62,146 bases of DNA from Acidimicrobiales bacterium (GCA_051001215.1 JBPCNP010000062.1:1-62146), one strand, 5' to 3'; shown: positions 41,852-54,610, numbered from the stretch's first letter. Program-made: numbers and translations. Notes: generated by a model from the letters alone, not told the origin.

Positions 41852-41930
41852 CGGCCACCTCCTTGGCCGACGATGGTAGATGGCCACGGGGCCGAACGGG
41901 TGAAGGAGTGGCGCCCAGTAGCCTGGCCGG

Positions 41931-42308: not shown

Positions 42309-42966
42309 CGCCGGGGCCGGGGACGGCAGCGGCGGCGGCCATGACCACGGCGGCGCCGAAGGCGACGCCTCCGACCACGTCGGTGGGGTAGTGCCAGCCG
42401 AGGCGCACCACGCCGGCTCCGGCGGCGAGGGGCAGGAGGGCGACCACGGGGGCCCAGTGCATGGCCGGGCGCCACCCGTACCAGCGGTTGACCAGCACCA
42501 GCACCAGGGCGGCGGCGGCCGCGGCCGTGGTGGCGTGGCCGGAGGGAAAGGCCAGACCGGTGCCGTGGTAGCGGCCGACGAGGGGCTTGGCCACCCCGTC
42601 GACGAGGGCGACGGCCAGGGCCGGTGCCCCCACGCTCACCACCACCGCCCAGGTGTCGTGTCGTCGCACGGCCAGAGCGGCCAGGACGACGACCAGGGCA
42701 ACGGCAACGGCGATGGTGCCCCAGGCGACGAGGGGCTGGGCCAGCGAGCGTGGTGCGGCGGCGCCAAAGTCGACTGTGAGGCGGCGGGGCGCGCGAATGG
42801 AGTCGACGATGCCCGATCCGATGCGGTCGACCCCGAGCGGCAAACCGGTGCCGCGAACGCGAAGGGCGAGGACGCCGACGACCGCGAACAGGCCGGCCGA
42901 GACCACCGAGAGCTCGCTCCGGCGAAGCCGGTCGATCGGTCGGCCATCTCCACCGATCCCTCGCAC
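42292..42966 (-). CDS. PAP2 family membrane phosphatase
   Basis: Multi-TM protein with PSGH and a (R)LGWHYPTDV acid-phosphatase motif. Confidence 0.75.
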   Translation of the reverse strand: MRGIGGDGRPIDRLRRSELSVVSAGLFAVVGVLALRVRGTGLPLGVDRIGSGIVDSIRAPRRLTVDFGAAAPRSLAQPLVAWGTIAVAVALVVVLAALAVRRHDTWAVVVSVGAPALAVALVDGVAKPLVGRYHGTGLAFPSGHATTAAAAAALVLVLVNRWYGWRPAMHWAPVVALLPLAAGAGVVRLGWHYPTDVVGGVAFGAAVVMAAAAAVPGPGASSRR

Positions 42967-43024
42967 GACCCGAGCCTAGGTCGCGGTTGGGGCTGTTCGG
43001 CCCGCGCCCGCTACGTTGGCGACG

Positions 43025-43270
43025 ATGACGTCATCGGAGGCGGTCGGAAACGCGTTTGCCTGGTTCGAGGTCAACAGCGGCTGGGCTCCGCCCGATGCCG
43101 AGACGCTGGACGACTGGCTGGGCGACGGCGTGTGCCGGTGCCCGGACGAGTGCCTGGTGGAACCGAACGGGTGGTGCGAGCACGGCCTGGCCAGTTGGTC
43201 GCTCATCCTCATGGCCGTGGAGGAAGCCGAGGGGCCGACGCTCCCCCGACCCGAGCAAGGGAGAAGATGA
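43025..43270 (+). CDS. Small Cys-containing hypothetical protein (81 aa)
   Basis: MTSSEAVGNAFAWFEVNSGWAPPDAETLDDWLGDGVCRCPDECLVEPNGWCEHGLASW... Its stop overlaps the ATG of the next gene (ATGA). I cannot name a family. Confidence 0.4.
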   Translation: MTSSEAVGNAFAWFEVNSGWAPPDAETLDDWLGDGVCRCPDECLVEPNGWCEHGLASWSLILMAVEEAEGPTLPRPEQGRR

Positions 43271-43695
43271 TGGGCAGCTTCGGTACCACCGTCCAAGCCG
43301 CACTCACCTCCGGACGTCTCGCCCATCTCGTCACCATCAACCCCGACGGGACCGCACAGATCAGCATCGTGTGGGTCGGCCTCGATGGCGACGACATCGT
43401 GGTCGGCCATCTCGGCCAGGGTCAGAAGATCCGCAACATCGAGCGCGATCCCCGGGTGGCACTGTCGATGGAGGCCGAGGGTCGAAACGAGATGGGCCTC
43501 GACCACTACCTCATCGTGCACGGCACTGCGACCCTCACCGAGGGGGGCGCAGCCGACCTGCTCCAGCGACTGGCCGAAATCTACCTTGGCCCCGGCGTGA
43601 AATTCCCGCCCTTCGACAACCCGCCCCCCGGGCGGGTCATTCGCATCGCCCCGACGCGCGTCGGCGGCGTCGGCCCGTGGGCCGAGACGGGCTGA
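43267..43695 (+). CDS. PPOX-class (pyridoxamine-5'-phosphate-oxidase-like) probable F420-dependent enzyme
   Basis: 142 aa: LAHLVTINPDGTAQISIVWVGLDGDDIVVGH...RNIERDPRVALS... is the typical split-barrel family pattern. Confidence 0.8.
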   Translation: MMGSFGTTVQAALTSGRLAHLVTINPDGTAQISIVWVGLDGDDIVVGHLGQGQKIRNIERDPRVALSMEAEGRNEMGLDHYLIVHGTATLTEGGAADLLQRLAEIYLGPGVKFPPFDNPPPGRVIRIAPTRVGGVGPWAETG

Positions 43696-43708: not shown

Positions 43709-44427
43709 GTGCGCGTCGGCATCCACCTGATGAGCTTCACCTGGCCCGGCCAGCCTGCGTCGATCGCCGCCACGCTGGCCGCGACCGCCCGGGAGGCCGA
43801 GGACGCCACCCCGGCCTGCTGGCCAAGATCGTCACCACCCTCGACGTCCTCTCCGGAGGCCGGGCCCAGCTCGGCCTCGGTGCCGCCTGGTACGAGCGGG
43901 AGCACGCCGCCCTGGGCGTGCCCTTCCCACCGCTTGCCGAGCGTTTCGAGCGCCTCGAGGAGACCGTGCGGATCTGCCTGCAGATGTGGAGTGACGACGA
44001 TGGCCCGTTCGAGGGTCGCCACTACCAATTGGCCGAGTCGCTGTGCTCGCCCCGTCCCGTCAGCGCTCCACACCCCGGGATCCTCATCGGCGGCAGCGGT
44101 GAGCGAAAGACCCTGCGACTGGTGGCCAGGTACGCCGACGCCTGCAACCTGTTCGCCACCGACCCCGACACCGTGGCCCGCAAGCTCGAGGTCCTCCGTG
44201 GTCACTGTGAGGCCGAAGAGCGGGACTACGCCACCATCGAAAAGACCATCCTGGCCATTGGCAACCCCCTGGCCGACCCGGACGCCTTCGTGGCCCAGAT
44301 GGCCGGCTACGCCCGCCTGGGTGTCGACACCGTGGCCGTGATGCCCGTCGGTGACCCCGTCGAGTTCACCGCCGACCTCGGCCTTCGGGTCATCCCCCGC
44401 CTCGCCGACCTCGAAGTCTCGGCCTGA
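43709..44427 (+). pseudogene. Luciferase-like (LLM class, F420-type) oxidoreductase with an internal deletion plus frameshift
   Basis: The N-terminal 33 aa (MRVGIHLMSFTWPGQPASIAATLAATAREAEDA, frame of 43709) are joined at ~43808-43812 to GLLAKIVTTLDVLSGGRAQLGLGAAWYEREHAALGVPFPPLAERFERLEE... in a different frame (that of ORF 43918..44427). The usual ~70-90 aa between these segments are missing. Confidence 0.6.
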
Positions 44428-44440
44428 GCCTGACGCCCGC

Positions 44441-45325
44441 TCACGGCTCCCAGCCCAGGTCGCTGCGGGCGTGGCGTCCCCAGTCGGGCTGGGTGCCGTC
44501 CACATCGGTGAAGCCGTAAGCCTGGTAGAGCTCCCAGGTGGCGGTGGCCGTACCGGTGCGGACCATCTTGTCGGCATCGGCGGCCAGAGCGGCCACGGCA
44601 CGGCCGAGGTAGCGCGGGGTCTCGGAGAAGGCGAAGTGCGGGTCCTTGGCGATGCCGTCGCGCCAGGTGGCCTCGGTCACGCCGAACAGCTCCAGCATGG
44701 CCTCCGAGCGCAGGAACCCCGGGCTCACTGCCACCGCTGCGGTCTGGTGGGCCCGGAGCTCCTCGCCCTGGGCCAGGGCCAGGCGGATGGCCGATGCCTT
44801 GGCCAGGTCGTAGAACAGCGAGCCGCGGTAACGGGGGCCCACGCCGTCGGTGACCTCGACGACGAGGCCGCCGGGCGTGCGGACCATGAGTGGCACCGCG
44901 TGCCAACTCGTGATGAGGTGCGTGTCCACGGCACCGCGCAGGAGGGACATGCCATTGGCCAGGTCGTGCTCCCAGAACGGGACGCCCCACTCGGCCAGAG
45001 GGTCGCCGCCCCAGATGTCGTTGACGAGGATGTCGAGGTGGCCCCGCTCGGCGTCGATCCGCCCGATCAGAGCCCGTACCTGGTCGGAGCTCGAATGGTC
45101 GACCTTGACGGCGACTCCCGTGCCGCCGGCGGCGTCGACCAACCGGGCCGTCTCCTCGATGGTCTCGGGACGGCCCATGGGTGAGGCAGACGAATCCGTG
45201 GTGCGGCCGGTGACATAGACGGTGGCTCCGGCCGCGCCCAGTTCGACGGCGATGCCGCGGCCGGCACCGCGAGTACCCCCGGCGACGAGCGCCACGCGAC
45301 CAGAGAGATCGGGGGCATCGCTCAC
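44441..45325 (-). CDS. SDR family oxidoreductase
   Basis: A VAGGTRGAGRGIA cofactor motif and a YDLAK (YxxxK-like) catalytic motif. Confidence 0.85.
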   Translation of the reverse strand: MSDAPDLSGRVALVAGGTRGAGRGIAVELGAAGATVYVTGRTTDSSASPMGRPETIEETARLVDAAGGTGVAVKVDHSSSDQVRALIGRIDAERGHLDILVNDIWGGDPLAEWGVPFWEHDLANGMSLLRGAVDTHLITSWHAVPLMVRTPGGLVVEVTDGVGPRYRGSLFYDLAKASAIRLALAQGEELRAHQTAAVAVSPGFLRSEAMLELFGVTEATWRDGIAKDPHFAFSETPRYLGRAVAALAADADKMVRTGTATATWELYQAYGFTDVDGTQPDWGRHARSDLGWEP

Positions 45326-45390
45326 AACGAGTTCTTGGCGCTGATCACGCGAGGTCGCATCTCGGTATGATCGCCGCCGAGGAGCGTGAG

Positions 45391-45783
45391 ATGGAAAACG
45401 AGGCGGTACGGGAAGTCATCGGGGGACCAGGCGTTCCCTCGGTCATCGGGCACTACTCCCCGGGCGTGCGGGCCGCCGGAATGGTCTATGTCTCCGGGCA
45501 GGCCGGCATCGACCCGGCGACCGGGAAGCCGGCCGGTGCCACCTTCGCCGAGCAGGCGAGACAGGCGCTCACCAATGTCGCCGCCGTCCTCGAGGCGGGT
45601 GGCAGCCGTCTCGATCTGGTGGTGAACATCACCGTGCTCATCGCCGACTTCAGCGTCTTCGCCGATCTCAACCAGGTCTTCTCGGAGTTCTTTCCTGCCG
45701 AACCCCCGGCTCGCATGACGATTCAGAACACCCTTCCCGGAGGCCTGCTCATCTCCGTCGGGTGCGTCGCCCTCGCCGGCTGA
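45391..45783 (+). CDS. ridA: RidA / YjgF / L-PSP family protein
   Basis: VIGHYSPGVRAAGMVYVSGQAGIDPATGK...ARQALTNVAAVLEAGGS... is the family pattern. The ATG at 45391 gives the usual ~130 aa. Confidence 0.85.
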   Translation: MENEAVREVIGGPGVPSVIGHYSPGVRAAGMVYVSGQAGIDPATGKPAGATFAEQARQALTNVAAVLEAGGSRLDLVVNITVLIADFSVFADLNQVFSEFFPAEPPARMTIQNTLPGGLLISVGCVALAG

Positions 45784-45789
45784 CCCTGG

Positions 45790-46650
45790 ATGGCGATCAT
45801 CCTGATCGTCGACGGCGACCCGGCGGGGCTCGAGCTGTTGGAGCGCGATATCGGCCGCCGTTACGGCGACGAACACCGGGTGGAGTCGACGACGAGCGGC
45901 GAATCCGCCCTCGCCGCCTGCGCTCGCTTGCGGGACGGTCCGAACCCGGTGGCCCTGGTGCTCGCCGCCGAGCTCCTCCCCGACAGCAACGGCTCGGCGA
46001 TCCTGCTGGGCGCCCGGGCCATGTTCCCCGAAGTCGGGCGGGTGCTGGTCACCAGTCACGCCGATGTCGAGGCGGCGATGGCCGCCATCAACGACACCGG
46101 AATCGACCAGTACCTGGCCAGTCCGTGGCAGTCGCCCGAGGACACGCTGTATCCCGTCATCGACGAGTTGCTGGCCGACTGGCGGGAGCGGATCGCCCTT
46201 CCCTATAGGCGGGTGCGAGACGTGATGCAGGGCACCGACGGCCTGGTTGGCGATGACGCCGACCTGCGCCAGGCGGCGGAGGTCGTCGCCTCGACCCGAA
46301 TCGGCGACCTGATGGTGGTCGACCCCGACGGAGCCTTCGTCGGTGTGCTGTCGGAGGGCGACATCCTGCGCAACGCCCTCCCCGACCTCGACGAGATCCT
46401 GGCTGCGGGCGGCTCGCTCTACGACGCCTACCAGCTCTTCATGGGCAAGGCCCACGCCCTTGCCGACCGACCTATCCTGCCTCTCGTCATCCGCGAGCCC
46501 CTGGTCATGCATCCCGACGATCACGTGGCCAAGGCGGCCACGATCCTGATCGAGCGACAGATCCGGCGGCTCCCTGTCGTCGACGACGGCCGGTTGGTGG
46601 GAACGGTGTCGCGCGCCGACATCTGCCGGGCGGTCGTGAGCACCCCGTGA
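45790..46650 (+). CDS. Pseudo-receiver (REC-like) domain fused to a CBS pair
   Basis: It has a REC fold (MAIILIVDGDP...VALVLAAELLPDSNG...VLVTSHAD...DQYLASPW), but Ala occupies the phospho-acceptor Asp position and Ser the conserved Lys position. The C-terminal half is a tandem CBS pair (VRDVMQG..., GVLSEGDIL, VMHPDDHV..., GTVSRADI). Confidence 0.75.
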   Translation: MAIILIVDGDPAGLELLERDIGRRYGDEHRVESTTSGESALAACARLRDGPNPVALVLAAELLPDSNGSAILLGARAMFPEVGRVLVTSHADVEAAMAAINDTGIDQYLASPWQSPEDTLYPVIDELLADWRERIALPYRRVRDVMQGTDGLVGDDADLRQAAEVVASTRIGDLMVVDPDGAFVGVLSEGDILRNALPDLDEILAAGGSLYDAYQLFMGKAHALADRPILPLVIREPLVMHPDDHVAKAATILIERQIRRLPVVDDGRLVGTVSRADICRAVVSTP

Positions 46651-49600
46651 CCGGGCACGCCGTGACGGCGGCGCCGAGCGGCCCGGTCGTCCCCGCCCGC
46701 CAGGTCCTCGTCGCCGCCGAGGAGACGAACGACCGACTCGGTCACGAGAACCTCGGGTTCCTGTCCGAGTCACACGGCTTCATGCCCCGCCGGCCTCCGT
46801 TGCTCTGCCTTCCGCCCTCGCACCGGGTCTGGGACGACATGGCCGCCCGCCTCCCGGAGATGTTCCGCAGCCTCACCCTCCGGGAATCCCTCGACCGGAT
46901 GCCCGTCCTCGGTGCCGGCCCCGACGACCTGGACGAGCGCTACCTGCTGCGCGCCTCGGCCATCTTCAGCATCTTCGCCCACGCCTACTACTACGTGGAT
47001 CCCGACCCACCGCCGGTGGTGCCCGACTCCGTCCTGCGCCCGTGGGGACAGATCACCGAGCGCCTCCAGCGCCCGGCCCCGCACCTCTCGTTCATCGACC
47101 TGAACGTCTACAACTGGAGGCTGATCGATCCGAGCCGGGCCGATTCGGTCAGGGTCGAGAACCTCGAACTTCTCATCCCGATCCTGGGCAACGAGGACGA
47201 ACGCCGATTCCAGATGGCCACCGTCGAGATCGTGGCCGAGCTCACCCCGATCGTGGCCGCCGCCGTCCGGGCCCAGGAGGCGGTCGTGGCCGGGAGCGTC
47301 GGCGACCTCAGGCGGGAACTGGCCGCCATCATGGGACACCTCGAGCACGTCGGCCTCGAGACCTTCGCCCAGGTCGATCCCAACCCTCGCTCGCACCTGC
47401 ACGTCGATCCGGTGGTCTGGGGCAAGACGGTGGCGCCGTTGGCCACTCCCTACCAGGACGATCCCCCGCCGGGCCCGAGTGGTACCGCCATCCCCGCCTT
47501 CCAGTTGCTCGACTCCCTCTTCGGTCGTCATCGCCACGCCACCAGCATCGGCACCGAGACGGCCCGGGTCCGTGCCTGGTTCCCCCGGCACTGGCAGGAC
47601 TTCCTCGAGGCGTTCGGGGCCATCTCGGTCCCCCGGTACGTCGCGACCAGCGGCGACCGGGCCCTGCGCGGCCTGTTCTCGGAGTGCCGTGAGGCCTACG
47701 CCGGAGACGCCGGCCTGCTGGGGCGACACCGGCTGAAGACCTACGGCTTCCTCGACCTCTCCTTCAAGGCGGGCCGGAGCAAGACGCTGGCCGGGTTCGC
47801 CGGCGGGTTCAACGACCGTCCGTGGGACCGCATGGACACCGAGCTGAGCGCGTCCCGACTGGAGCGCTACCCGGTGACCAACCAGAGCTGCCACCAGGTC
47901 CGCATCGCCCGCGTCAGGGCGTTGCGCTCCGACGAACAGGCATGGGTCGGCGAAGTCACCCTCGACGTGGCGGGGTCCGGAATCCGGTACCGCCCCGGGA
48001 GCAGGTGCGCGGTGCTGCCCGAGAACAGCGACGATCTCGTGGCCCTCACACTGTCGGCCCTTCACGCCCGGGGCGACGAGCCCATCCAGCTGAACGGGCC
48101 GTGGCGAGAGGCGGTCGAGCTGCGCCACGGCTACGAGGACGCCCGGATCCTCGCCCTCCGCACCTTGTTGCGCTTCGGTCGCATCCGTCCGGTGACCCGT
48201 CCGGTGGCCAAGGCGCTGCTCGCCGTGAGCCACGGCGAGAGGCTGCGCCGCATCGTCGAGGCCCGCAGCGAGGAGCAGTGGGAGCTGTGGGAGCTGCTGG
48301 AGATGCTGAGCGGCACGGGTTTCAAAGCGGCCCGGCTCTGGAAGGCCCATGCCGGCGAGCGGGAAGGCATCTGCCGGATCGTCCCACCGGAGTCGTTCCG
48401 GCTGTTCTCCGTGTCCTCGGCGGTGGAGGGCCCACCCGAGGAGGGGGCCCGGGAGCTGAACCTCACCATCGGGCGCATGCGCTACGACACCAGCCCGACC
48501 GAGCTGGCGCCCGCCGGCACGCACGTGGGGACGGCATCGGGGTTCTTGTCCCGCCCAGCGCGCTCCGACTCGGCCTCGCGCCGGGTGTCGGTCAGAGTCG
48601 TACAACCGCCCAACTTCGGGCTCCCCACCGACGTCCGGCGGCCCGTGGTGATGTTCGCCGGAGGTACGGGCGTCTCCCCGTTCATCGGCATGATCCTCGA
48701 GCGGGCCCGCCAGCCGGGCGCCGGGGAGAACTGGCTCTTCCTGGCCGGGCGAACCGCGGCCGACGTGCACCATGGCGAGCTCCTGCGAGCGATGGCGCTC
48801 GAGGGCACGCTCAATTTGCGGATCGCCCTGTCGAGCGACGAGGCGTCGGGCTCGCGGCGCCACATCGGTGACGAGATGCTGGAGGAGGCCAACGCCCGCC
48901 GCTTGTGGCAGTTCCTGCGATCCGAGGGCGACGGTGGTCTGGGCGCGTCGTTCTACGTCTGCGGCCGGACCGGCTTCGCGTCCGCGGTGACCGACGCCAT
49001 CAAGGCCATCCTGGCCCGCTTCGGCGAGGGCTCGACCGAGGAGCGGCGGGCGGCGGCCAACCAGGCTCTGTTCGGGCTCATCGGGGAGAAGCGCTACATG
49101 CAGGAGGTCTTCACGACCTACGCCGGGCCCGAGCGGCCCCCTGAGCGGGGTGACGGGCCCGAGGTGGGGAGCGGGCGCAGCTATGACGCGTCCGAGGTGG
49201 CGGGTCACAACGACGTGGCCGAGGGCCTCTGGATGACTATCGGTGGGCGGGTCTACGACGTCGGTGAGTTCGCCGACATGCACCCCGGGGGACCCAAGAT
49301 CGTCCGCTCCTACGCGGGCATGGACGCCACCGACGCCTATCGCCGCGTGCGCCACGACGTCAACCCCGAAGTCGACGCCCTGCTCCCGATGTACGAGATC
49401 GGGGTCGTCCGGCGTCTCGACTTCGGAGCTGCCTGGGGAACGGCGATCTCGCCCGAAGGGCTCCGCTTCATCACCTTGAAAGACGCCTACCGGGCCTGGA
49501 TCGGGTTGCTGTTCTCGGCGGTGGAGATGGAGAACGCCCTGACCATGGACTACGGCGTCCGCGACGAGCCGGTCACCTACGACGAGAGCCACTCCATCTC

Positions 49601-50138
49601 GGGGTCCCCCTACAAGACCCGTCTCTGCCTGCACACCCACGAGCGCTTCGTCGACCAGTACCTGCCCACGCTCACCGGCGACCGCCTGGGCGACGTCTGG
49701 GCCATGACGAGCGGGCTGGTCTCCGACCGTCACCACGTGCGATGGATGAGCGATCAGATCGGGGCCCTGGAGCACGGCCCCCGGGCCCAGGCCGCGACCG
49801 CCTTCGCCCATGAGATCGCCCGGCGTCTCCGGGCCGCCGCCGGGCGGCCCAGCCCATCGGGTGACGCCTCCCTCCGGTGGTGTGAGAACCGGGCCCGCCT
49901 GCTCGAACGTGAGGATCGGCGGCTCCTCGGCGAGCTGAAGTCGGCCCTCATCGACGGCGTACGGGTCTTCGAGCACTGGGAGGATCGCACGATCAGCCAC
50001 GGCGGCCAGGAGCTGGTGGCCACGGCTCGGGCCCTGCCGGCGTTGATCGACGACTACTGGGGCCGCTGCGCCCTCGTGGGCGAATCGCAGCCACCGGGTG
50101 GATCAGGCATGCCCGGGTGGGAGACACTGGTGCAGTGA
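46647..50138 (+). CDS. Multidomain fusion: IDO-like heme dioxygenase, FAD/NAD(P)H ferredoxin-reductase-type domain, cytochrome b5, and an unknown C-terminal helical domain
   Basis: The GTG at 46647 overlaps the upstream stop (GTGA).
aa ~35-405 (nt ~46749-47861) carry IDO-type motifs.
aa ~415-826 (nt ~47889-49124) carry FRLFSVSS, GTASGFL, PVVMFAGGTGVSPFIGMI, FYVCGRTGFASAV and RYMQEVF.
aa ~845-925 (nt ~49179-49421) form a cytochrome b5 domain with HPGG and a second His 24 residues later.
aa 926-1163 are unassigned. Confidence 0.8.
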   Translation: MTGHAVTAAPSGPVVPARQVLVAAEETNDRLGHENLGFLSESHGFMPRRPPLLCLPPSHRVWDDMAARLPEMFRSLTLRESLDRMPVLGAGPDDLDERYLLRASAIFSIFAHAYYYVDPDPPPVVPDSVLRPWGQITERLQRPAPHLSFIDLNVYNWRLIDPSRADSVRVENLELLIPILGNEDERRFQMATVEIVAELTPIVAAAVRAQEAVVAGSVGDLRRELAAIMGHLEHVGLETFAQVDPNPRSHLHVDPVVWGKTVAPLATPYQDDPPPGPSGTAIPAFQLLDSLFGRHRHATSIGTETARVRAWFPRHWQDFLEAFGAISVPRYVATSGDRALRGLFSECREAYAGDAGLLGRHRLKTYGFLDLSFKAGRSKTLAGFAGGFNDRPWDRMDTELSASRLERYPVTNQSCHQVRIARVRALRSDEQAWVGEVTLDVAGSGIRYRPGSRCAVLPENSDDLVALTLSALHARGDEPIQLNGPWREAVELRHGYEDARILALRTLLRFGRIRPVTRPVAKALLAVSHGERLRRIVEARSEEQWELWELLEMLSGTGFKAARLWKAHAGEREGICRIVPPESFRLFSVSSAVEGPPEEGARELNLTIGRMRYDTSPTELAPAGTHVGTASGFLSRPARSDSASRRVSVRVVQPPNFGLPTDVRRPVVMFAGGTGVSPFIGMILERARQPGAGENWLFLAGRTAADVHHGELLRAMALEGTLNLRIALSSDEASGSRRHIGDEMLEEANARRLWQFLRSEGDGGLGASFYVCGRTGFASAVTDAIKAILARFGEGSTEERRAAANQALFGLIGEKRYMQEVFTTYAGPERPPERGDGPEVGSGRSYDASEVAGHNDVAEGLWMTIGGRVYDVGEFADMHPGGPKIVRSYAGMDATDAYRRVRHDVNPEVDALLPMYEIGVVRRLDFGAAWGTAISPEGLRFITLKDAYRAWIGLLFSAVEMENALTMDYGVRDEPVTYDESHSISGSPYKTRLCLHTHERFVDQYLPTLTGDRLGDVWAMTSGLVSDRHHVRWMSDQIGALEHGPRAQAATAFAHEIARRLRAAAGRPSPSGDASLRWCENRARLLEREDRRLLGELKSALIDGVRVFEHWEDRTISHGGQELVATARALPALIDDYWGRCALVGESQPPGGSGMPGWETLVQ

Positions 50139-50170
50139 CCGACCCCAGTTCTCGGGCTCAGGCGAGCACC

Positions 50171-50590
50171 ATGCGATGCCCGGTGTGCAAGAAGATGAAC
50201 CGGGTCCCGCTCCACGACAGCGGCAGGGCCCGGTGCGGTGCGTGCAGGGCCCCGCTCACCCCGCTCGCCGGTGGCCCGTCAGCGTCGCCCCGATCGGGCG
50301 ACCTGGGCCGCCAGGTGATCGAGCGCTGGGACGCCCTGTTGCGCCTCGTCCCGCGGGGCATGGCCCTGGGCCGGGCCGTGGGCAGGAGCGGGGCTGACGA
50401 CCCGGCCGCCGATCCGGTCGGGTTTCTCAGTAGCGCGGCCCACATGCCGAGGGACGAACTGGATCAGGTGCGACTGCTGCGCATCCATCTGGCGTCCAAC
50501 AAGGTGGTGCCCCAGGCCGTGCTCACCAAGGCCCTCGACACCCTCGACCGGGCCCACGCCGTGCTGGAGCGCACCCGCCTGTCCGAATGA
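50171..50590 (+). CDS. Zinc-ribbon protein (Trx2-type N-terminal CxxC..CxxC finger) with a non-thioredoxin helical C-terminus
   Basis: MRCPVCKKMNRVPLHDSGRARCGACRAPL matches the thioredoxin-2 N-terminal zinc finger pattern (CP.C...NRvP......CG.C...L). No CGPC/thioredoxin fold follows it. Confidence 0.5.
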   Translation: MRCPVCKKMNRVPLHDSGRARCGACRAPLTPLAGGPSASPRSGDLGRQVIERWDALLRLVPRGMALGRAVGRSGADDPAADPVGFLSSAAHMPRDELDQVRLLRIHLASNKVVPQAVLTKALDTLDRAHAVLERTRLSE

Positions 50591-50617: not shown

Positions 50618-51700
50618 TCAGGCCAGTTCGTCCGTCCAGCCGACGGTTGCCGGGTCGACGTCGTCGCGCAGTCCCTTGAGGGAGGGCTGGCGGAGGACGC
50701 CGGCCACGGTGACCTCGTTGAACATCACCTCCACCACCACGGTGGGCCTGACGTAGTGCAACGGCGCCCCGGGGGTGTTGGCGAACGGGCTCGTCTCGGC
50801 TGCGAGCTGCCGGAACTGGTCGGACAGCTTCTGGAGGAGGAGATCGCTGAGGCCCGAACCCACCTGGCCGACGTAGCGCAGGGCGAAGGGGTGACCGGGT
50901 GGCGCCGGGGCATCGGGATCGACCCAGCCGACGGCCAGCGAGCCGATCTGACCGGACCGACCGCCTCCCCCCTCGCTCCAGCCACCCACCACGAACTCGC
51001 GCCGGCCGACGCACTTGACCTTGGTCCACGCCTTCGATCGCTTCCCGATGGCGTAGGCGGACGAGGCCACCTTGCCCATGTACCCCTCGAGCCCGACCTT
51101 GCGGCAGGCGGCCACCAGCTCGTCGTCGGCGGCATCGGGCAGCAGCGGCGACGTCTGCCACGACGGCCCCGTCAGGGCCAGCGCCTCGAGCCGGCGTCGA
51201 CGGTCGACGAAGGCCTCGTCGGTGACGAACTGCCCATCGAGCCAGAGCACGTCGAACACCACGTAGAGGGCAGGCACGTCTGCCACCAGGGCCGGAGCGG
51301 GACGGCGCACATGCATGCGGCGCTGCAGGCGCTCGAAGCTGGGCCGGCCCCCCTCGTCGAAGGTGATGATCTCACCGTCGAGCACGACGGCCCGGTCACC
51401 GAGCGCGAAGCCCAGCTCGGCCAGCTCCGGGTAGCCGGCGGTGACATCGTTGCCGAGGCGGCTGGTGATCGACACCCGGCCGTCCCACACCCGGGCGACG
51501 GCGCGCACACCGTCCCACTTGGGCTCGAACAACCAGCCGTCGTGGTTCTCGGGCGGGCCCGTCAGGCCCGTGAGCATCGGCGCCACGACCGGCGGCACCG
51601 GCCCTTCGTAGGCGGCGGCCGGCGCCGCGCCAGCCGCGGGCGCCGGCACCTTCGCCTTGGCCTTGGCCTTCGGGCGCGACCCCTTCCGGACCTTGCTCAT
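50618..51700 (-). CDS. ATP-dependent DNA ligase (stand-alone LigD/LigC-type ligase domain)
   Basis: Adenylation motif I (EPKWDGVR), LDGEI, EGYMGK, and an OB-fold region. The N-terminal tail is Lys/Ala-rich. Confidence 0.9.
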   Translation of the reverse strand: MSKVRKGSRPKAKAKAKVPAPAAGAAPAAAYEGPVPPVVAPMLTGLTGPPENHDGWLFEPKWDGVRAVARVWDGRVSITSRLGNDVTAGYPELAELGFALGDRAVVLDGEIITFDEGGRPSFERLQRRMHVRRPAPALVADVPALYVVFDVLWLDGQFVTDEAFVDRRRRLEALALTGPSWQTSPLLPDAADDELVAACRKVGLEGYMGKVASSAYAIGKRSKAWTKVKCVGRREFVVGGWSEGGGGRSGQIGSLAVGWVDPDAPAPPGHPFALRYVGQVGSGLSDLLLQKLSDQFRQLAAETSPFANTPGAPLHYVRPTVVVEVMFNEVTVAGVLRQPSLKGLRDDVDPATVGWTDELA

Positions 51701-53124
51701 GGCGCGATGACCACCAGGCGCTCCTCGGTCATCTCGCGCACCGCGTAGGCGGGGCCCTCCTTGGTGTTGCCGCTCTCGCGGACGCCGCCGTAGGGCATCT
51801 GGTCGGCGCGCCAGGTGGGGACCTCGTTGACCATCACGGCGCCGAACCGGAGCCGACGGGCGGCTTCCAGCGCGGTGTCGATGCGGGCGGTGAAGATGCC
51901 CGCTTGGAGGCCGTAACGGGTGTCGTCGGCCAGGCCCAGGCCCTCGTCGACGTCAGCCACCGCCTGCACGGCGACGACCGGCCCGAAGACCTCGTCACGG
52001 CACACCCGCATCTCCGGTCGCACGTCGCTCAGCACGGTGGGGGTCAACAGGCCGTCGCGAATGTCGCCCCCGGTGAGCACCTTCGCTCCTTGTCCCACGG
52101 CCTCGTCGACCCAGGCCTTCACCCGGTCGCGGTCGTCGGGGGTAATGAGGGCGGACACGTCGGTGCCCTCGTCGAGAGGGTCGCCCACCTTCAACGCACC
52201 GACGAGGCCGGCCAGGGCGGAGCAGAAGTCATCCGCCACCTTGGCATGGACGAACACCCGCTGCGTGGACACGCACGACTGACCGGCATGGCTGAACCCG
52301 GCTACGGCGATGGTGCGGGCGGCCCGCTCCCAGTCGCCGTCGGCGTCGACGATCACCGGTGAGCTGTTGCCCAGCTCGAGGGCGACCTTGGTGCGCGAGG
52401 CTCGCTCGGCGATGCCCCAGCCGACCTCACCGGAGCCGGTGAAGCTGATGTAGGACACGTCGGGGTTGTCGACCAGGGTCTTGCCTATCGAGCTGCCGCC
52501 ACCGGTGACCACGTTGAGGTGCCCGGCCGGCAAGCCGCACTCGTCGAGGAGGAGCTCGGCCAGGGCGATCGCCGACAGGGGTGTCTGGCTGGCGGGCTTG
52601 AGCACGACCGGGCAGCCGGCGGCGATGGCCGGTGCCAGCTTGTGGGCCACCAGGTTGAGGGGGAAGTTGAACGGCGAGATGGCCCCGACCACACCGATGG
52701 GCAGCCGCAGGGTGAAGGCCAACCGGCCCTCGCCCACCTGGGCGGCGTCGATGGGCACCATGTCGCCAGCGAGCGTGCGGGCGGCCACGGCCGCGAACGT
52801 GATGGTGGACACCGCCCGTTGCGCCTCGGTCCGAGCCGTCTTCAGGGGCTTGGCCGACTCGGCGGCGATGGTGCGGGCAAACTCCTCGGTGCGCTCCCCG
52901 AGGAGGCGGGCGGCGGTGTCGAGGATCTCCGCCCGTCGCCAGGGCGGCAACGGACCGGCGTCGTGGGCGGCTTTGGCGGCAGCCACGGCCCGATCGACCT
53001 CTGCCTCGCCGCACCGGGGGACGAGGGCCAGCTCGGCGCCGTCGAAGGGGGCCCGCACGGCGATGGTGTCGCCATCGCCGGTGAAGCGCTGGTCGCCGAT
53101 GGGGACGGGGCGTAGATCGGCCAT
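51697..53124 (-). CDS. NAD(P)-dependent aldehyde dehydrogenase
   Basis: ISPFNFPL, KPASQTP, FTGSGEVG, ELGNSSP and the catalytic Cys region GQSCVS. It overlaps the ligase start by 4 nt. Confidence 0.9.
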   Translation of the reverse strand: MADLRPVPIGDQRFTGDGDTIAVRAPFDGAELALVPRCGEAEVDRAVAAAKAAHDAGPLPPWRRAEILDTAARLLGERTEEFARTIAAESAKPLKTARTEAQRAVSTITFAAVAARTLAGDMVPIDAAQVGEGRLAFTLRLPIGVVGAISPFNFPLNLVAHKLAPAIAAGCPVVLKPASQTPLSAIALAELLLDECGLPAGHLNVVTGGGSSIGKTLVDNPDVSYISFTGSGEVGWGIAERASRTKVALELGNSSPVIVDADGDWERAARTIAVAGFSHAGQSCVSTQRVFVHAKVADDFCSALAGLVGALKVGDPLDEGTDVSALITPDDRDRVKAWVDEAVGQGAKVLTGGDIRDGLLTPTVLSDVRPEMRVCRDEVFGPVVAVQAVADVDEGLGLADDTRYGLQAGIFTARIDTALEAARRLRFGAVMVNEVPTWRADQMPYGGVRESGNTKEGPAYAVREMTEERLVVIAP

Positions 53125-53127
53125 GTC

Positions 53128-54576
53128 TCAAGTCTCCCCCGTCGCCGACCCCTGCTGGGACAGGTGCTCGATCACCTTGGCTGCGGTCGCGCCGGCCTGC
53201 TGTACGCAAGCGGCGATGCCGACACCGCGGAACGAGGCTCCGGCCACGAAGACCCCACCCAGTCCGGACAGTTCGGCCTCGATGCGCGCCACCAGTTGGT
53301 CGTGACCGGGCTCGTACTGTGGGAAGCCGTTGGCCCAGCGGTCGACGCGCCAGGCGGTGGGAGCGTCGGTGGTGCCCACCAGGGTGGCGAGCTCGTCGTG
53401 CAGCCGGCCGACCAGCGCGTCGTCGTCGAGCCGGCCGGCGCGGTCGTCGCCGTCGCGCCCGGCTGAGGCCCGCAGCCGCACCAGGTCGTCGCCGCCGATG
53501 CCGGGCCACTTGGCGGTGGAGAACGTGCACGCCGTCAGCAGCCGGTTCTCGCTCCTGGGCACGAGGAAGCCGCTTCCGGCGGGGAGCGCCGGGAGGTGCT
53601 CACGGCGGTAGGCCAGGGTGGCGGTGACGACCGAGGCGTAGCGGATGCGGCCGAGGAGGTGGGCGGCCTCCGGTGAGGCGGCGGCCACCACCGGGGCGAC
53701 GGCGAACGCCGGTGTGGTGAGGACGACGGCGTCGGCCGTCACGTCGGGGCCGGGCTGGCAGGTGAGCCGCCACCGGCCGTTCTCGGCCGCCAGCCCCGTG
53801 GCCGCCGTGTGCAGGCGCAGATCGCCAGCCTCGAGTGACGCCGCCAGCCGCTCGACCAGGCGCTCCAGGCCACCGGCCACGGACAGGAACACGGGTGAGC
53901 CATCGGCGCCGGCGGCCCGGTTGGCCCGAAGGCCCAGGATCAAGCTGCGATGGCTGGCCGCCGCTGCGGCCAGCTGGGGCGCGGCCGAACGCAGGCTGAG
54001 GGTGTCGGCCCGTCCGGCGTTGATGCCCCCCACCAGTGGCTCCACGAGGCGGTCGAGCATCTGGCGGCCCAGGCGTGACCCGATGACCTCGGCGACCGAC
54101 GGGTCGGGCCCGAGAAGCCGCCGGCGACGGGGGAGGACGACATCGAGGGCGGCCCGAGCCTTGCCGGCGGGTGAGAGCTGGGCGGCCCCGAGCAGCGAGC
54201 GGGCGGTGACGGGCACACCGAGGACGGTGCCCGGCGGGAAGGGTACGAGGCGGCCGCGATGACAGACATAGGCCACGCCCGTCGCCGGGGCGACCAGGTC
54301 GTCGTCCAGGCCGAGCCGGCGGGCCAGGTCGACGGCCCACGGCACGCGGGCGAGGAACGTGTCGGGGCCGGCTTCGACCGCCACGCCACCCAGTTCTTCG
54401 GTGCGGATCTTGCCGCCGAGGCGCCCGCTCGACTCGACCAGGACGACGTCGGCGCCGTCGGGGCCCAGCCCGTCGCGCAGGTACCAGGCGGTGGCCAACC
54501 CGGTGATCCCCCCGCCGACGACGGCGATCCTCGCCCTGGCCCGGGTTGGAGCGGACGCCCCGGGCGGGTCAGGCAC
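53128..54576 (-). CDS. hemY: Protoporphyrinogen / coproporphyrinogen III oxidase (HemY/CgoX family)
   Basis: The start is refined to the in-frame GTG at 54576 (VPDPPGASAPTRARARIAVVGGGITGLATAWYL..., an FAD GxGxxG motif). The further upstream part of track ORF 53128..54879 reads through the repeats and the inverted hemH fragment and is rejected. Confidence 0.85.
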   Translation of the reverse strand: MPDPPGASAPTRARARIAVVGGGITGLATAWYLRDGLGPDGADVVLVESSGRLGGKIRTEELGGVAVEAGPDTFLARVPWAVDLARRLGLDDDLVAPATGVAYVCHRGRLVPFPPGTVLGVPVTARSLLGAAQLSPAGKARAALDVVLPRRRRLLGPDPSVAEVIGSRLGRQMLDRLVEPLVGGINAGRADTLSLRSAAPQLAAAAASHRSLILGLRANRAAGADGSPVFLSVAGGLERLVERLAASLEAGDLRLHTAATGLAAENGRWRLTCQPGPDVTADAVVLTTPAFAVAPVVAAASPEAAHLLGRIRYASVVTATLAYRREHLPALPAGSGFLVPRSENRLLTACTFSTAKWPGIGGDDLVRLRASAGRDGDDRAGRLDDDALVGRLHDELATLVGTTDAPTAWRVDRWANGFPQYEPGHDQLVARIEAELSGLGGVFVAGASFRGVGIAACVQQAGATAAKVIEHLSQQGSATGET

Positions 54577-54610
54577 CCCGGACAGCGGCCGAGGGCGAGC
54601 CGGAACCCCG

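What the first reader, a model, noticed from the sequence alone, without database searches (positions are those of the whole stretch)
46647..50138. Candidate self-sufficient indoleamine-2,3-dioxygenase: IDO-like heme domain, FAD/NAD(P)H reductase and cytochrome b5 in one 1163-aa protein
Seen in the sequence:
- aa ~35-405 carry the IDO-family pattern: GFLSESHGFMP..LPPSHRVWDDMAARLPEMFRSLTLRESLDRMPVL, FSIFAHAYYYV, VLRPWGQITERLQRPAPHLSFIDLNVYNW, GNEDERRFQMATVEI, and GPSGTAIPAFQLLDSLFG, which matches the GGSAGQSSvFQcfDvLLG region. LLGRHRLKTYGF aligns with the IDO1 proximal-His segment LRSYHLQIVTKYI, so His361 is the candidate heme ligand.
- aa ~415-826 are a ferredoxin-reductase-type module as found in CPR or sulfite reductase flavoprotein: FRLFSVSS, GTASGFL, PVVMFAGGTGVSPFIGMI, FYVCGRTGFASAV, RYMQEVF. 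No FMN/flavodoxin domain is present.
- aa ~845-925 are a cytochrome b5 domain (DMHPGG, with a second His 24 residues later).
- aa 926-1163 are an unassigned helical domain.

Established knowledge: IDO is active only with ferrous heme, and in eukaryotic cells cytochrome b5 with its NAD(P)H reductase is the accepted reducing system.

Inference: this polypeptide carries the whole chain NAD(P)H -> FAD -> b5 heme -> dioxygenase heme. It would be analogous to P450-BM3 for P450s. I am not aware of such an architecture having been described. The neighbours (RidA, a pseudo-receiver/CBS protein, a zinc-ribbon protein) could form a small tryptophan/indole-type oxidation module.
Basis: partly seen in the sequence, partly recalled or inferred. 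Interest (0 to 1): 0.85.

Follow-up and report, generated by a model that had tools for sequence, protein, structure and literature searches.

The report
IDO haem enzyme with built-in reductase
One 1163-residue bacterial protein joins an indoleamine-dioxygenase-type haem domain to an NAD(P)H/FAD reductase, a cytochrome b5 and a new helical domain; this undescribed "self-powered" enzyme family occurs in several phyla, always next to a CBS regulatory protein, and its substrate is unknown.

Summary
Bases 46647-50138 (+) are one uninterrupted 1163-aa ORF (GC3 0.91). It contains an IDO domain (PF01231, E 1e-27), a sulfite-reductase/CPR-type FAD/NAD(P)H module without an FMN domain, a cytochrome b5 domain (E 4e-15), and a ~230-aa helical domain with no Pfam, PDB-sequence or PDB-fold match.

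The cofactor residues are invariant in 55 homologues:
- the candidate proximal His361, which aligns with IDO1 His346;
- the b5 ligands His879 and His903;
- the FAD/NADPH motifs.

It is not an assembly artefact. At least 120 protein clusters and 78 genome loci, all MAGs, share the architecture. They are mostly Chloroflexota, with Actinomycetota, Myxococcota, Acidobacteriota and Armatimonadota.

A CBS-domain gene lies directly upstream in 72 of 85 loci, overlapping as GTGA here. RidA is adjacent in 24 loci. The zinc-ribbon ORF is not conserved.

Most likely mechanism: NAD(P)H -> FAD -> b5 haem -> IDO-type haem, an oxygenase that carries its own reducing system.

The reaction is unresolved. The residues that hold the tryptophan carboxylate in IDO1 (Arg231, Thr379) are not conserved, and no kynurenine-pathway genes are nearby. 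The recurrent partners (RidA, an HpaI-type aldolase, fused imine-reductase-like and GGACT domains) suggest imine or 2-oxo-acid chemistry.

Six full-text searches found no description of this fusion. I rate it a new variant of a known kind.

The parts
45367..45783 (+). RidA-family (enamine/imine deaminase-type) gene, first gene of the operon
   Evidence: Pfam Ribonuc_L-PSP E 1e-26. NCBIfam TIGR00004 Rid family scores 102.5 bits, just under its cut-off of 106.25. The PAR motif Arg is present. A homologue lies within about 1 kb of the fusion gene in 24 of 85 related loci. It ends 6 bp before the CBS gene.
45790..46650 (+). Degenerate receiver (REC-like) plus CBS-pair protein; conserved partner of the fusion enzyme
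   Evidence: Pfam CBS E 7e-20 with two stretches; Response_reg 25.9 bits, below its cut-off. The acceptor position is Ala here and Asp in only about 18 of 46 long homologues. A homologue lies directly upstream of the fusion gene in 72 of 85 loci at 40-64% identity. Its stop overlaps the fusion gene start as GTGA at 46647-46650.
46647..50138 (+). Whole fusion gene, 1163 aa
   Evidence: The AlphaFold2 model has pLDDT 85.9 and pTM 0.87.
46716..47870 (+). IDO-type haem domain (aa ~24-408), with candidate proximal His361
   Evidence: PF01231 97.5 bits. PDB IDO2 2e-15 and IDO1 2e-10. hhalign to human IDO1 gives probability 98.4% over aa 32-387, with His361 aligned to His346 and GFAGG to GTGGT. F188, S278, G279, F285, D289 and H361 are invariant or nearly so.
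47892..48626 (+). FAD-binding barrel with helical connecting sub-domain (aa ~416-660)
   Evidence: NCBIfam sulfite reductase alpha/CysJ alignment of aa 422-822. Foldseek TM 0.78-0.81 to SiR-FP60 1ddg and the P450 BM3 FAD domain 4dqk. R585-x-[YF]-S588 is invariant.
48645..49112 (+). NAD(P)H-binding sub-domain (aa ~667-822)
   Evidence: PF00175 35.7 bits. G672-G-T-G675..P678, C772-G773, E/D820 and F/Y822 are conserved. F/Y822 aligns with the C-terminal Tyr of SiR-FP. The Ser-Arg 2'-phosphate pair is S729-R730 in 32 of 55 sequences but S729-S730 in this protein.
49113..49178 (+). Flexible linker (aa 823-844) between reductase and b5
   Evidence: pLDDT is below 50 for aa 824-841.
49179..49421 (+). 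Cytochrome b5 domain (aa ~845-925), with haem ligands His879 and His903
   Evidence: PF00173 56.2 bits. PDB cytochrome b5 type B 5e-12. H879-P-G881-G882 and H903 are invariant.
49422..50096 (+). Family-specific C-terminal domain (aa ~926-1150): a beta-hairpin plus helical bundle with a very long last helix
   Evidence: No Pfam hit and no PDB sequence hit with a single sequence or a profile. AF2 run on this domain alone gives pLDDT 90.1. The best Foldseek PDB hit has E 0.27. A profile search of 1.84 billion representatives finds 381 clusters. All nine that were Pfam-scanned have it downstream of b5; the shorter hits look like fragments of the same fusion. E960, N963, D968, R1000, W1018, K1098 and E1109 are invariant; H998 is present in 51 of 55.
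50117..50590 (+).
   Evidence: Only a sub-threshold zf-Sec23_Sec24 hit. A tblastn match exists only in the 93%-identical relative L001.

Best explanation
The gene encodes a self-sufficient haem oxygenase of the IDO family. A CPR/sulfite-reductase-type module takes a hydride from NAD(P)H onto FAD. FAD passes single electrons to a bis-His cytochrome b5 domain, which is tethered by a flexible linker and stands where diflavin reductases have their FMN domain. The b5 haem then reduces the His-ligated IDO-type haem, which binds O2 and oxidises an aromatic, probably indole-like, substrate. A family-specific C-terminal helical domain and an obligate, translationally coupled CBS-pair protein probably scaffold and gate the enzyme. 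The CBS protein carries a degenerate receiver domain here; other lineages have an FHA domain fused to the enzyme instead.

Shown: the domains, the conserved cofactor-binding residues, the conservation of the architecture and of the CBS partner across phyla, and a confident predicted fold.

Inferred: cofactor occupancy, the direction and path of electron flow, the role of the CBS protein and of the C-terminal domain, and the substrate.

It is undecided whether the electrons only restore Fe(II) after autoxidation (a true dioxygenase) or are used in every turnover (monooxygenase-like or NO-dioxygenase-like). I weight the first two about equally and the NO-dioxygenase reading lower.
For: - Domain identities.
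- No FMN domain.
- Invariant His361, aligned to IDO1 His346.
- Invariant b5 His879 and His903, 24 residues apart.
- Conserved FNR-family catalytic residues: S588, C772, E/D820 and the stacking aromatic F/Y822.
- A low-confidence linker at 824-841 between reductase and b5 within an otherwise confident model with pTM 0.87.
- The same architecture in at least 120 protein clusters and 78 genome loci from about six phyla.
- The CBS gene directly upstream in 72 of 85 loci, with a GTGA overlap here.
- FHA fused at the N-terminus in 39 of the 120 best hits.
- Cytochrome b5 is the proposed physiological reductant of eukaryotic IDO (PMC4191572, citing Vottero 2006 and Maghzal 2008).
- Natural b5/b5-reductase fusions that feed an oxygenase are known (PMC12462446).
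Against: - There is no experimental evidence for any member, and every genome hit is a MAG.
- I could not read the model coordinates, so the b5-to-IDO haem distance and the position of His361 in the fold are not checked.
- FAD_binding_1 scores below Pfam's cut-off in this protein (29 against 32.3). The FAD module rests on the NCBIfam alignment and the fold match.
- This protein has Ser, not Arg, at position 730 of the 2'-phosphate pair, so NADPH versus NADH is open.
- A dioxygenase needs only occasional re-reduction, so a 500-residue built-in reductase is not obviously required.
- The IDO1 residues that bind the tryptophan carboxylate and ammonium groups are not conserved.
Confidence: 0.7

Rival explanations
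1. Classical tryptophan (indoleamine) 2,3-dioxygenase that makes N-formylkynurenine. The reductase and b5 serve only to return autoxidised Fe(III) haem to Fe(II), replacing in cis the b5/b5-reductase system that most bacteria lack.
For: - Clear IDO family membership with the conserved haem-pocket elements F188 (= F163), S278/G279 (= S263/A264) and His361 (= His346).
- b5 is the proposed physiological IDO reductant.
- IDO autoxidises readily and needs a continuous reductant in assays (PMC4191572).
Against: - IDO1 Arg231 and Thr379, which hold the amino-acid end of tryptophan, align with Tyr/Phe/His252 and Phe384.
- No kynurenine formamidase, kynureninase or other kynurenine-pathway gene appears in the nine annotated loci or among the 25 most recurrent neighbour clusters of 85 loci.
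- The recurrent neighbours (RidA, HpaI-type aldolase) have no role after N-formylkynurenine.
Confidence: 0.3
2. NAD(P)H-consuming monooxygenase or oxidase built on the IDO fold. Electrons are used in every turnover, with P450/NOS logic on a His-ligated haem. The substrate would be an indole or amino-acid-derived compound, and the product an imine, enamine or 2-oxo acid (for example a 3-hydroxyindolenine-type or dehydro-amino-acid product) that RidA, the aldolase or a fused imine-reductase-like domain then processes.
For: - The other natural haem-reductase fusions known to me (P450 BM3, NOS, flavohaemoglobin) use stoichiometric electrons (established knowledge).
- The FAD/NADPH module is homologous to that of BM3 and CPR.
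- Human IDO has a monooxygenase side pathway (PMC12921851).
- The relative MarE is a monooxygenase (PMC11904535).
- RidA is adjacent in 24 loci. An HpcH/HpaI aldolase occupies the same slot in 9 other loci, and the two are mutually exclusive.
- One variant has a C-terminal NAD_binding_2/RedAm-like (imine-reductase-type) domain, and three clusters have an N-terminal GGACT domain.
- The amino-acid-binding residues of IDO1 are altered.
Against: - All of this is circumstantial.
- RidA and the aldolase together cover only 33 of 85 loci.
- The imine-reductase-like fusion is seen once, on a contig with 2.85x coverage.
- No pocket residue diagnostic of monooxygenase chemistry is known for this family.
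Confidence: 0.3
3. Gas-handling haemoprotein analogous to flavohaemoglobin. The IDO-type haem binds O2 and dioxygenates NO, or simply stores or senses O2 as molluscan IDO-like myoglobins do. The built-in b5/reductase acts as its met-reductase, under CBS/FHA signalling control.
For: - The architecture parallels flavohaemoglobin: a haem domain plus an FNR-type reductase that returns one electron per NO turnover (PMC3820574).
- The IDO fold is used as a myoglobin in gastropods (reference cited in PMC1821046).
- b5 with b5 reductase is the classical met-globin reductase (established knowledge).
- The family associates with signalling domains (FHA, degenerate REC, CBS), with Ser/Thr kinases in about 15 loci, and with a bacillithiol biosynthesis operon in about 10 FHA-variant loci.
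Against: - A conserved aromatic pocket (F149, F188, F285) suggests an organic substrate.
- No NO-responsive regulator or denitrification gene recurs nearby.
- RidA and aldolase linkage is not explained.
Confidence: 0.12
4. Artefact: separate IDO, reductase and b5 genes merged by a sequencing or assembly error, or a decaying pseudogene.
For: One database relative (P0139, a 2.4-kb contig) lacks aa 413-728, showing that deletions or mis-assemblies occur.
Against: - The ORF is uninterrupted with GC3 0.91.
- At least 120 independent full-length homologues down to 46% identity share the same domain order.
- There are 78 genome loci, some on contigs of 2-11 Mb.
- Cofactor residues are invariant.
Confidence: 0.01

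Closest known systems
Eukaryotic indoleamine 2,3-dioxygenases IDO1/IDO2 (PF01231), reduced in trans by cytochrome b5 and its reductase
   Same: The haem domain belongs to the same sequence family (97.5 bits; hhalign probability 98.4%). The proximal His, the G-x-S-G loop over the haem and Phe163 are conserved. The electron donor is b5, as proposed for IDO1 in cells.
   Different: Here b5 and an NAD(P)H/FAD reductase are in the same polypeptide. The reductase is of the CPR/sulfite-reductase type, not the b5-reductase type. Arg231 and Thr379 are not conserved. There is an extra C-terminal domain and a CBS partner. The host is bacterial.
Self-sufficient haem-reductase fusions: P450 BM3 (CYP102A1) and nitric oxide synthase
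   Same: The logic is one chain from NADPH to a catalytic haem. The FAD/NADPH module, including its connecting sub-domain, is homologous (Foldseek TM 0.78-0.81 to 4dqk; top hit 8dme).
   Different: The catalytic haem domain has an IDO fold with a His ligand, not a Cys-ligated P450 or NOS. The FMN domain is absent, and a b5 haem domain placed after the reductase takes its role.
Sulfite reductase flavoprotein CysJ / SiR-FP60
   Same: It is the best sequence and structure match for aa 422-822. Several database entries carry this name.
   Different: Scores are far below the equivalog cut-offs (115 against 432; 108 against 668). There is no FMN domain and no CysI partner. The database name 'sulfite reductase alpha-like' describes one domain only.
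Natural cytochrome b5 / b5-reductase fusions (animal Ncb5or; fungal CBBR that feeds CYP540A2, PMC12462446)
   Same: The electron chain NAD(P)H -> FAD -> b5 haem lies in one polypeptide and delivers electrons to an oxygenase.
   Different: Those fusions use the small b5-reductase-type FAD domain, and the acceptor oxygenase is a separate protein. Here the acceptor is fused and the FAD module is of the diflavin-reductase type.
Flavohaemoglobin (Hmp) and molluscan IDO-like myoglobin
   Same: Flavohaemoglobin is a haem domain fused to an FNR-family reductase that keeps or returns the haem to Fe(II). The IDO fold is known to serve as an O2 carrier in gastropods.
   Different: There is no globin domain, an intermediate b5 is present, and a conserved aromatic pocket suggests an organic substrate.
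Other haem-dependent aromatic oxygenases with non-dioxygenase chemistry (PrnB, MarE, tyrosine hydroxylases)
   Same: They are His-ligated haem enzymes of the same superfamily that act on aromatic amino acids, some as monooxygenases needing an external reductant.
   Different: hmmscan reports only the IDO family for this protein, not the TDO or PrnB families. None of those enzymes is known to be fused to a reductase.

Membership tests
Indoleamine 2,3-dioxygenase family (PF01231) | Profile score above the curated threshold over most of the domain | tested here: met
   97.5 bits against a cut-off of 26, aa 40-347 on profile positions 8-338 of 412. hhalign extends the match to aa 32-387 against IDO1 4-382.
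Indoleamine 2,3-dioxygenase family (PF01231) | Proximal histidine haem ligand (IDO1 His346) | tested here: met
   His361 is invariant in 55 of 55 sequences and aligns with His346. Its position in the 3D fold was not checked because the model coordinates were not readable.
Indoleamine 2,3-dioxygenase family (PF01231) | Distal-pocket loop G262-S263-A264 and Phe163 | tested here: met
   P277-S278-G279 aligns with G262-S263-A264 (G276 with G261); G276, S278 and G279 are invariant. F188 aligns with F163 and is present in 50 of 55 sequences.
Indoleamine 2,3-dioxygenase family (PF01231) | Residues binding the carboxylate/ammonium end of L-Trp (IDO1 Arg231, Thr379) | tested here: not met
   Arg231 aligns with position 252 (Tyr 40, Phe 9, His 5; His here). 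Thr379 aligns with Phe384 (49 of 55). The alignment around position 252 is of modest confidence.
Indoleamine 2,3-dioxygenase family (PF01231) | Catalyses Trp -> N-formylkynurenine | not testable with these tools
   This needs an enzyme assay. No kynurenine-pathway genes lie nearby.
Cytochrome b5 (PF00173) | Profile score above threshold, plus the HPGG motif and a second His ligand about 24 residues later | tested here: met
   56.2 bits against 23.7. H879-P-G-G and H903 are invariant.
FNR-superfamily FAD/NAD(P)H module of the CPR/SiR-FP type | NAD-binding domain above threshold; R-x-Y-S FAD motif; GTGxxP; Cys-Gly; acidic residue plus stacking aromatic at the C-terminal end; fold match | tested here: met
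   PF00175 35.7 against 22. R585/S588, G672-G675/P678, C772-G773, E/D820 and F/Y822 are conserved. Foldseek TM 0.78-0.81 to 1ddg and 4dqk. PF00667 alone is below its threshold (29 against 32.3).
Diflavin reductases (CPR, CysJ, BM3 reductase, NOS reductase) | FMN-binding flavodoxin domain N-terminal to the FAD module | tested here: not met
   No flavodoxin hit even at E<=1. The IDO domain ends at about aa 408 and the FAD barrel starts at 416. CysJ equivalog cut-offs are missed by a wide margin.
Flavohaemoglobin | Globin haem domain | tested here: not met
   No globin domain. There is only a weak hit of the reductase part to the NO-inducible flavohaemoprotein model (18 bits against 432).
RidA (neighbour gene 45367-45783) | Rid-family profile and the active-site Arg | tested here: inconclusive
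   Pfam 93.5 bits against 27.3. NCBIfam TIGR00004 scores 102.5, just below 106.25. A PAR motif Arg is present. Activity was not tested.

The most novel reading that the evidence does not exclude
This family would be the first NAD(P)H-driven monooxygenase or oxidase built on the IDO fold. A His-ligated IDO haem would receive electrons in every turnover through FAD and a fused b5. It would convert an indole or amino-acid-derived substrate into a reactive imine or 2-oxo-acid product, handled by RidA, an HpaI-type aldolase or a fused imine-reductase-like domain. A dedicated CBS-pair protein and FHA or pseudo-receiver modules would switch it on and off, making it a signalling-controlled metabolic enzyme in uncultured Chloroflexota and Actinomycetota rather than a kynurenine-pathway enzyme.
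Probability: 0.3. Interest if true: 0.85.

Novelty: new variant of a known kind. Interest (0 to 1): 0.72.

Why it matters
How IDO haem is kept ferrous in cells has been debated for decades: superoxide, b5 and other donors have been proposed. A natural fusion in which evolution wired b5 and an NAD(P)H reductase directly to an IDO-type haem is independent evidence that b5 is a cognate donor for this fold.

It also offers a single-polypeptide system for measuring that electron transfer without artificial reductants such as methylene blue and ascorbate.

If the electrons are used stoichiometrically, the family would extend the self-sufficient oxygenase principle (P450 BM3, NOS, flavohaemoglobin) to a third haem fold and could be a useful biocatalyst.

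The family is widespread: 381 clusters at 50% identity across several phyla. It has no name beyond "cytochrome b5 domain-containing protein". It carries a structurally novel domain and an obligate CBS partner, so it is also an annotation gap worth closing.

Tried and rejected
1. C-terminal domain identity. I tried Pfam at E<=1, PDB by sequence, PDB by a 20-sequence profile (best hit an Mce/MlaD protein at E 0.075, judged chance), and AF2 plus Foldseek against PDB (best E 0.27, TM <=0.32 over the query). No assignment resulted. I considered a ferritin-like or haem-oxygenase-like di-iron site because of the conserved E960/E962/H998/E1109. I rejected it because only one His is conserved and there is no paired ExxH motif.

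2. Other contexts for the C-terminal domain. An exhaustive profile search found it only in this fusion or in fragments of it. Variants carry GGACT, FHA or NAD_binding_2 additions.

3. A reductase-less architecture. P0139 looked like IDO-b5-C-domain, but it is a deletion of aa 413-728 on a single 2.4-kb contig. I do not treat it as a real variant.

4. The zinc-ribbon ORF as part of the module. Rejected, because it is conserved only in the 93% relative.

5. An anti-phage defence system. PADLOC gives no hit for the fusion or the CBS protein, only a generic RidA-like match. The 'Ukko' system that mentions PF01231 is an unrelated TDO-type gene set.

6. A biosynthetic gene cluster in the window. The flanks hold NHEJ genes, an SDR, an aldehyde dehydrogenase, an amine oxidase, URO-D and acetate kinase. 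It is not a recognisable cluster.

7. Literature. Six full-text searches for the fusion and one for PF01231 in bacteria found no description. One query failed on syntax.

8. Inter-haem geometry. The tools do not expose model coordinates, so the b5-to-IDO distance could not be measured. The whole-model Foldseek list was filled by reductase hits, so the IDO domain was not ranked structurally against IDO1, PrnB and TDO.


Full report
**1. The observation**

Bases 46647-50138 on the + strand form one ORF of 1163 codons with a GTG start and a single terminal stop. GC at the three codon positions is 0.705, 0.505 and 0.910, the pattern of a real gene in a ~71% G+C genome. The 1076-aa ORF on the opposite strand (46770..50000) has the mirror pattern and is a shadow ORF.

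**2. Domain content**

| Region (aa) | Assignment | Evidence |
|---|---|---|
| 40-347 | IDO (PF01231) | 97.5 bits, cut-off 26 |
| 410-483 | FAD_binding_1 | 29.0 bits, below cut-off 32.3 |
| 669-782 | NAD_binding_1 | 35.7 bits, cut-off 22 |
| 848-921 | Cyt-b5 | 56.2 bits, cut-off 23.7 |
| about 926-1150 | no assignment | nothing at E<=1 |

- No FMN/flavodoxin domain is reported.
- NCBIfam aligns aa 422-822 end to end with sulfite reductase alpha/CysJ models, at scores far below their cut-offs (115 against 432). This is a relative of that module, not CysJ.
- PDB sequence hits agree: SiR-FP60 at 2e-23, IDO2 at 1e-14, IDO1 at ~1e-9, cytochrome b5 at 5e-12, and CPR.
- The AlphaFold2 model built on 55 homologues is confident: mean pLDDT 85.9, pTM 0.87. 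Confidence drops at the termini, in a loop at 639-643, and in the linker at 824-841 between reductase and b5.
- Foldseek matches the reductase part to the BM3 FAD domain, SiR-FP60 and the CPR FAD/NADPH domains, with TM about 0.8 normalised on the target.

**3. Cofactor residues**

These come from the 55-sequence alignment, whose members are 47-94% identical to the query.

- *IDO haem.* His361 is invariant within R360-H361-R362..K364. hhalign against human IDO1 (probability 98.4%, aa 32-387 against 4-382) places His361 on the proximal ligand His346, and GFAGG (383-387) on the GTGGT of the JK loop.
- *Haem pocket.* S278-G279 align with IDO1 S263-A264, F285 with F270, D289 with D274, and F188 with F163. 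All are invariant or nearly so.
- *Tryptophan-binding residues.* IDO1 Arg231 aligns with position 252 (Tyr 40, Phe 9, His 5) and Thr379 with Phe384. No conserved Arg lies in that stretch.
- *b5 haem.* H879-P-G-G and H903 are invariant and 24 residues apart.
- *Reductase.* R585-x-[Y/F]-S588, G672-G-T-G675..P678, C772-G773, E/D820 and F/Y822 are conserved. F/Y822 aligns with the C-terminal Tyr of SiR-FP. These correspond to the Ser/Cys/Asp triad and the stacking aromatic of CPR-type enzymes.
- *Nucleotide preference.* The Ser-Arg pair that binds the NADPH 2'-phosphate is S729-R730 in 32 of 55 sequences but S729-S730 in this protein. Its nucleotide preference is therefore open.

**4. The C-terminal domain**

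- Residues about 926-1150 fold confidently, alone or in the full-length model: pLDDT 90.1 for the domain run separately.
- The fold is a beta-hairpin followed by a helical bundle that ends in a very long helix (1070-1144 by DSSP).
- It has no Pfam hit, no PDB sequence hit with a single sequence or a profile, and no PDB fold hit. The best Foldseek E-value is 0.27.
- A profile search of 1.84 billion representatives found 381 clusters. In all nine Pfam-scanned hits the domain lies downstream of a b5 domain; the shorter hits look like fragments of the same fusion.
- It is therefore specific to this family. Its role (scaffold, dimerisation, or docking of the CBS protein) is inferred only.

**5. A conserved, widespread family**

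- The word-indexed search returned at least 120 clusters covering 97-100% of the query at 46-93% identity, with the same four Pfam domains. Of these, 39 carry an additional N-terminal FHA domain.
- The only names given by sources are "cytochrome b5 domain-containing protein", "sulfite reductase alpha subunit-like flavoprotein", "FHA domain-containing protein" and "hypothetical protein".
- The scan of one genome per GTDB species found 78 loci, every one from a MAG or uncultured isolate.
  - About 58 are Chloroflexota: Anaerolineae, Ardenticatenaceae, Promineifilaceae, Caldilineaceae, Aggregatilineales, Chloroflexia.
  - Six are Actinomycetota: Euzebya, Nitriliruptoraceae and unclassified.
  - Five are Myxococcota, two are Vicinamibacterales, two are Armatimonadota and one is Oligoflexus.
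  - Four short contigs are binned to Bacteroidota or Proteobacteria and may be binning errors.
- The window itself has no match above 56% there, so it comes from an unrepresented high-GC lineage, most likely an actinobacterium. Its closest relative (93%) is on a JGI metagenome contig with the same gene order.
- Rarer variants add an N-terminal GGACT/AIG2 domain (three clusters) or a C-terminal NAD_binding_2/RedAm-like domain of imine-reductase or beta-hydroxyacid-dehydrogenase type. The latter is one cluster on a low-coverage contig.

**6. Gene neighbourhood**

In the window the order is RidA (45367-45783), then after 6 bp a degenerate-receiver/CBS-pair protein (45790-46650), then the fusion gene. 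The fusion gene's GTG overlaps the CBS gene's TGA as GTGA, which suggests translational coupling.

- tblastn finds the CBS protein directly upstream in 72, at 40-64% identity. Many of the rest are truncated contigs.
- RidA lies within about 1 kb in 24.
- The downstream zinc-ribbon ORF appears only in the 93% relative.
- Unsupervised clustering of flank ORFs adds an HpcH/HpaI-type aldolase. It sits in the RidA slot in nine other loci, and the two are mutually exclusive.
- Ser/Thr kinases lie nearby in about 15 loci.
- In about ten FHA-variant loci a same-strand bacillithiol-type operon follows: BshA and BshB1 above NCBIfam cut-offs, a PIG-L/cNMP-binding protein, and an unannotated ~400-aa protein.
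- No kynurenine-pathway gene recurs.
- The receiver domain of the CBS partner keeps the acceptor Asp in only about 18 of 46 long homologues.
- Where the CBS partner is short (CBS pair only), the enzyme tends to carry FHA. The two look like alternative input modules around a constant CBS-plus-enzyme core.

**7. Mechanism**

Best-supported reading, confidence about 0.7: NAD(P)H reduces FAD in the CPR/SiR-type module. The b5 domain sits on a flexible tether and stands in for the missing FMN domain. It shuttles single electrons to the His361-ligated IDO-type haem, which activates O2 on an aromatic substrate.

- *Shown:* the domains, the ligand and motif conservation, the architecture conserved across phyla, and the confident fold.
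- *Inferred:* cofactor occupancy, electron path, substrate, and the roles of the C-terminal domain and the CBS protein.
- *Precedents:* b5 is the proposed physiological reductant of IDO1 and IDO2 (PMC4191572). Natural b5/b5-reductase fusions feed oxygenases (PMC12462446).

What the electrons are for is unresolved. I hold three readings.

- **(a) Trp/indoleamine dioxygenase with built-in reactivation, about 0.30.** Family membership and the known lability of ferrous IDO favour it. The missing Arg231 and Thr379, the absence of kynurenine genes, and the unexplained RidA/aldolase linkage count against it.
- **(b) Stoichiometric NAD(P)H-consuming monooxygenase or oxidase giving an imine or 2-oxo-acid product, about 0.30.** All other natural haem-reductase fusions work this way. 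IDO and MarE have monooxygenase chemistry (PMC12921851, PMC11904535). The RidA, HpaI-aldolase, imine-reductase-like and GGACT associations also fit. All of this is circumstantial.
- **(c) Flavohaemoglobin-like NO dioxygenase or O2-binding protein with its own met-reductase, about 0.12.** PMC3820574 and the IDO-like myoglobins support the analogy.

An assembly artefact is excluded in practice.

**8. Comparison with known systems**

- The protein works like P450 BM3, NOS or flavohaemoglobin: a catalytic haem fused to its NAD(P)H reductase.
- It is a member of the IDO sequence family, the b5 family and the FNR superfamily.
- It is not a diflavin reductase or CysJ, because it has no FMN domain and misses the equivalog cut-offs.
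- It is not shown to be a tryptophan dioxygenase, because the substrate-anchoring residues tested are not met.
- The combination IDO + CPR-type FAD/NADPH + b5 + new domain + CBS partner was not found in six full-text searches of about 8.3 million papers and preprints. It has no curated NCBIfam or Pfam model.
- Subscription-only literature was not searched.

**9. Verdict**

I rate it a new variant of a known kind and score interest at 0.72. A haem-dioxygenase specialist would find a natural IDO-b5-reductase fusion surprising. It also makes the long-running question of how IDO haem is reduced directly testable in a single polypeptide. If reading (b) is right, it would define a new class of self-sufficient oxygenase.

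Noticed in passing
L006 11879-18063 (also L011, L013, L022, L024, L034, L041, L046, L047, L067, L084): In FHA-variant loci the fusion gene is followed on the same strand by four genes. They are a ~1030-aa PIG-L/NPCBM_assoc/cNMP-binding protein, BshA (TIGR03999, 310 bits against cut-off 273.7), an unannotated ~380-410-aa protein, and BshB1 (TIGR04001, 258 against 182.5). Together they form a bacillithiol-type thiol biosynthesis operon, which links the enzyme to thiol redox metabolism.
   Followed up: partly
L006 16172-17317 and homologues in about 10 loci: A recurrent ~400-aa protein lies between BshA and BshB1 with no Pfam or NCBIfam hit. From its position it could replace the cysteine-adding enzyme BshC.
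   Followed up: no
L066 3650-4465 (also L033, L039, L044, L050, L062, L064, L065, L071): An HpcH/HpaI-type class II aldolase (PF03328, E 1.5e-33) occupies the slot just upstream of the CBS gene in nine loci that lack RidA. The two are mutually exclusive, which hints at 2-oxo-acid chemistry downstream of the enzyme.
   Followed up: partly
window 45790-46650: The receiver domain of the CBS partner is degenerate. The phospho-acceptor position is Ala here and Asp in only about 18 of 46 long homologues. In FHA-variant loci the partner is a bare CBS pair of about 160 aa.
   Followed up: yes
window 40110-41947 (-) and 50618-51700 (-): Non-homologous end-joining genes flank the operon: LigD primase-polymerase, Ku, and a separate ATP-dependent DNA ligase. 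This order is shared only with the 93% relative, so it is probably unrelated to the enzyme.
   Followed up: no
window 51697-54879 (-): An aldehyde dehydrogenase (E 4e-145) and a flavin amine oxidase (E 6e-50) lie back to back on the opposite strand and could form an amine-catabolic pair. They are conserved with the fusion gene only in the closest relative. URO-D is at 55639-56673 here, and in L001 ferrochelatase precedes URO-D (haem biosynthesis).
   Followed up: no
window 46770-50000 (-): A 1076-aa antisense ORF spans almost the whole gene. Its codon-position GC (0.912/0.502/0.700) is the mirror image of the real frame, so it is a high-GC shadow ORF and not a gene.
   Followed up: yes
P0245 (L086 1790-6163); P0148, P0239, P0237 (L087 1489-6255): Rare longer variants exist. 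One has a C-terminal NAD_binding_2/RedAm-like (imine-reductase-type) domain, on a contig with 2.85x coverage. Three clusters have an N-terminal GGACT/AIG2 (gamma-glutamyl cyclotransferase-like) domain.
   Followed up: partly
P0139 (JGI 3300043331, 2.4-kb contig): A relative lacks residues equivalent to 413-728 (most of the reductase) but keeps the IDO end, b5 and the C-terminal domain. It is either a real deletion variant or a mis-assembly.
   Followed up: partly
L034, L035, L038, L051: Four loci are binned to Bacteroidota, Cellvibrionaceae, Alphaproteobacteria and Ectothiorhodospiraceae. Their proteins resemble the Chloroflexota FHA variants (39-46% identical to the query), so this is either MAG contamination or horizontal transfer.
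   Followed up: no
window 41753-42391, 43709-44341, 44351-45184 (+): Three + strand ORFs upstream of the operon have no Pfam hit. The 434-aa ORF at 42391-43695 has a PNPOx-like domain only in its last 130 residues. In the 93% relative the equivalent region was called as smaller PNPOx and luciferase-like genes, so the gene models here are uncertain.
   Followed up: no
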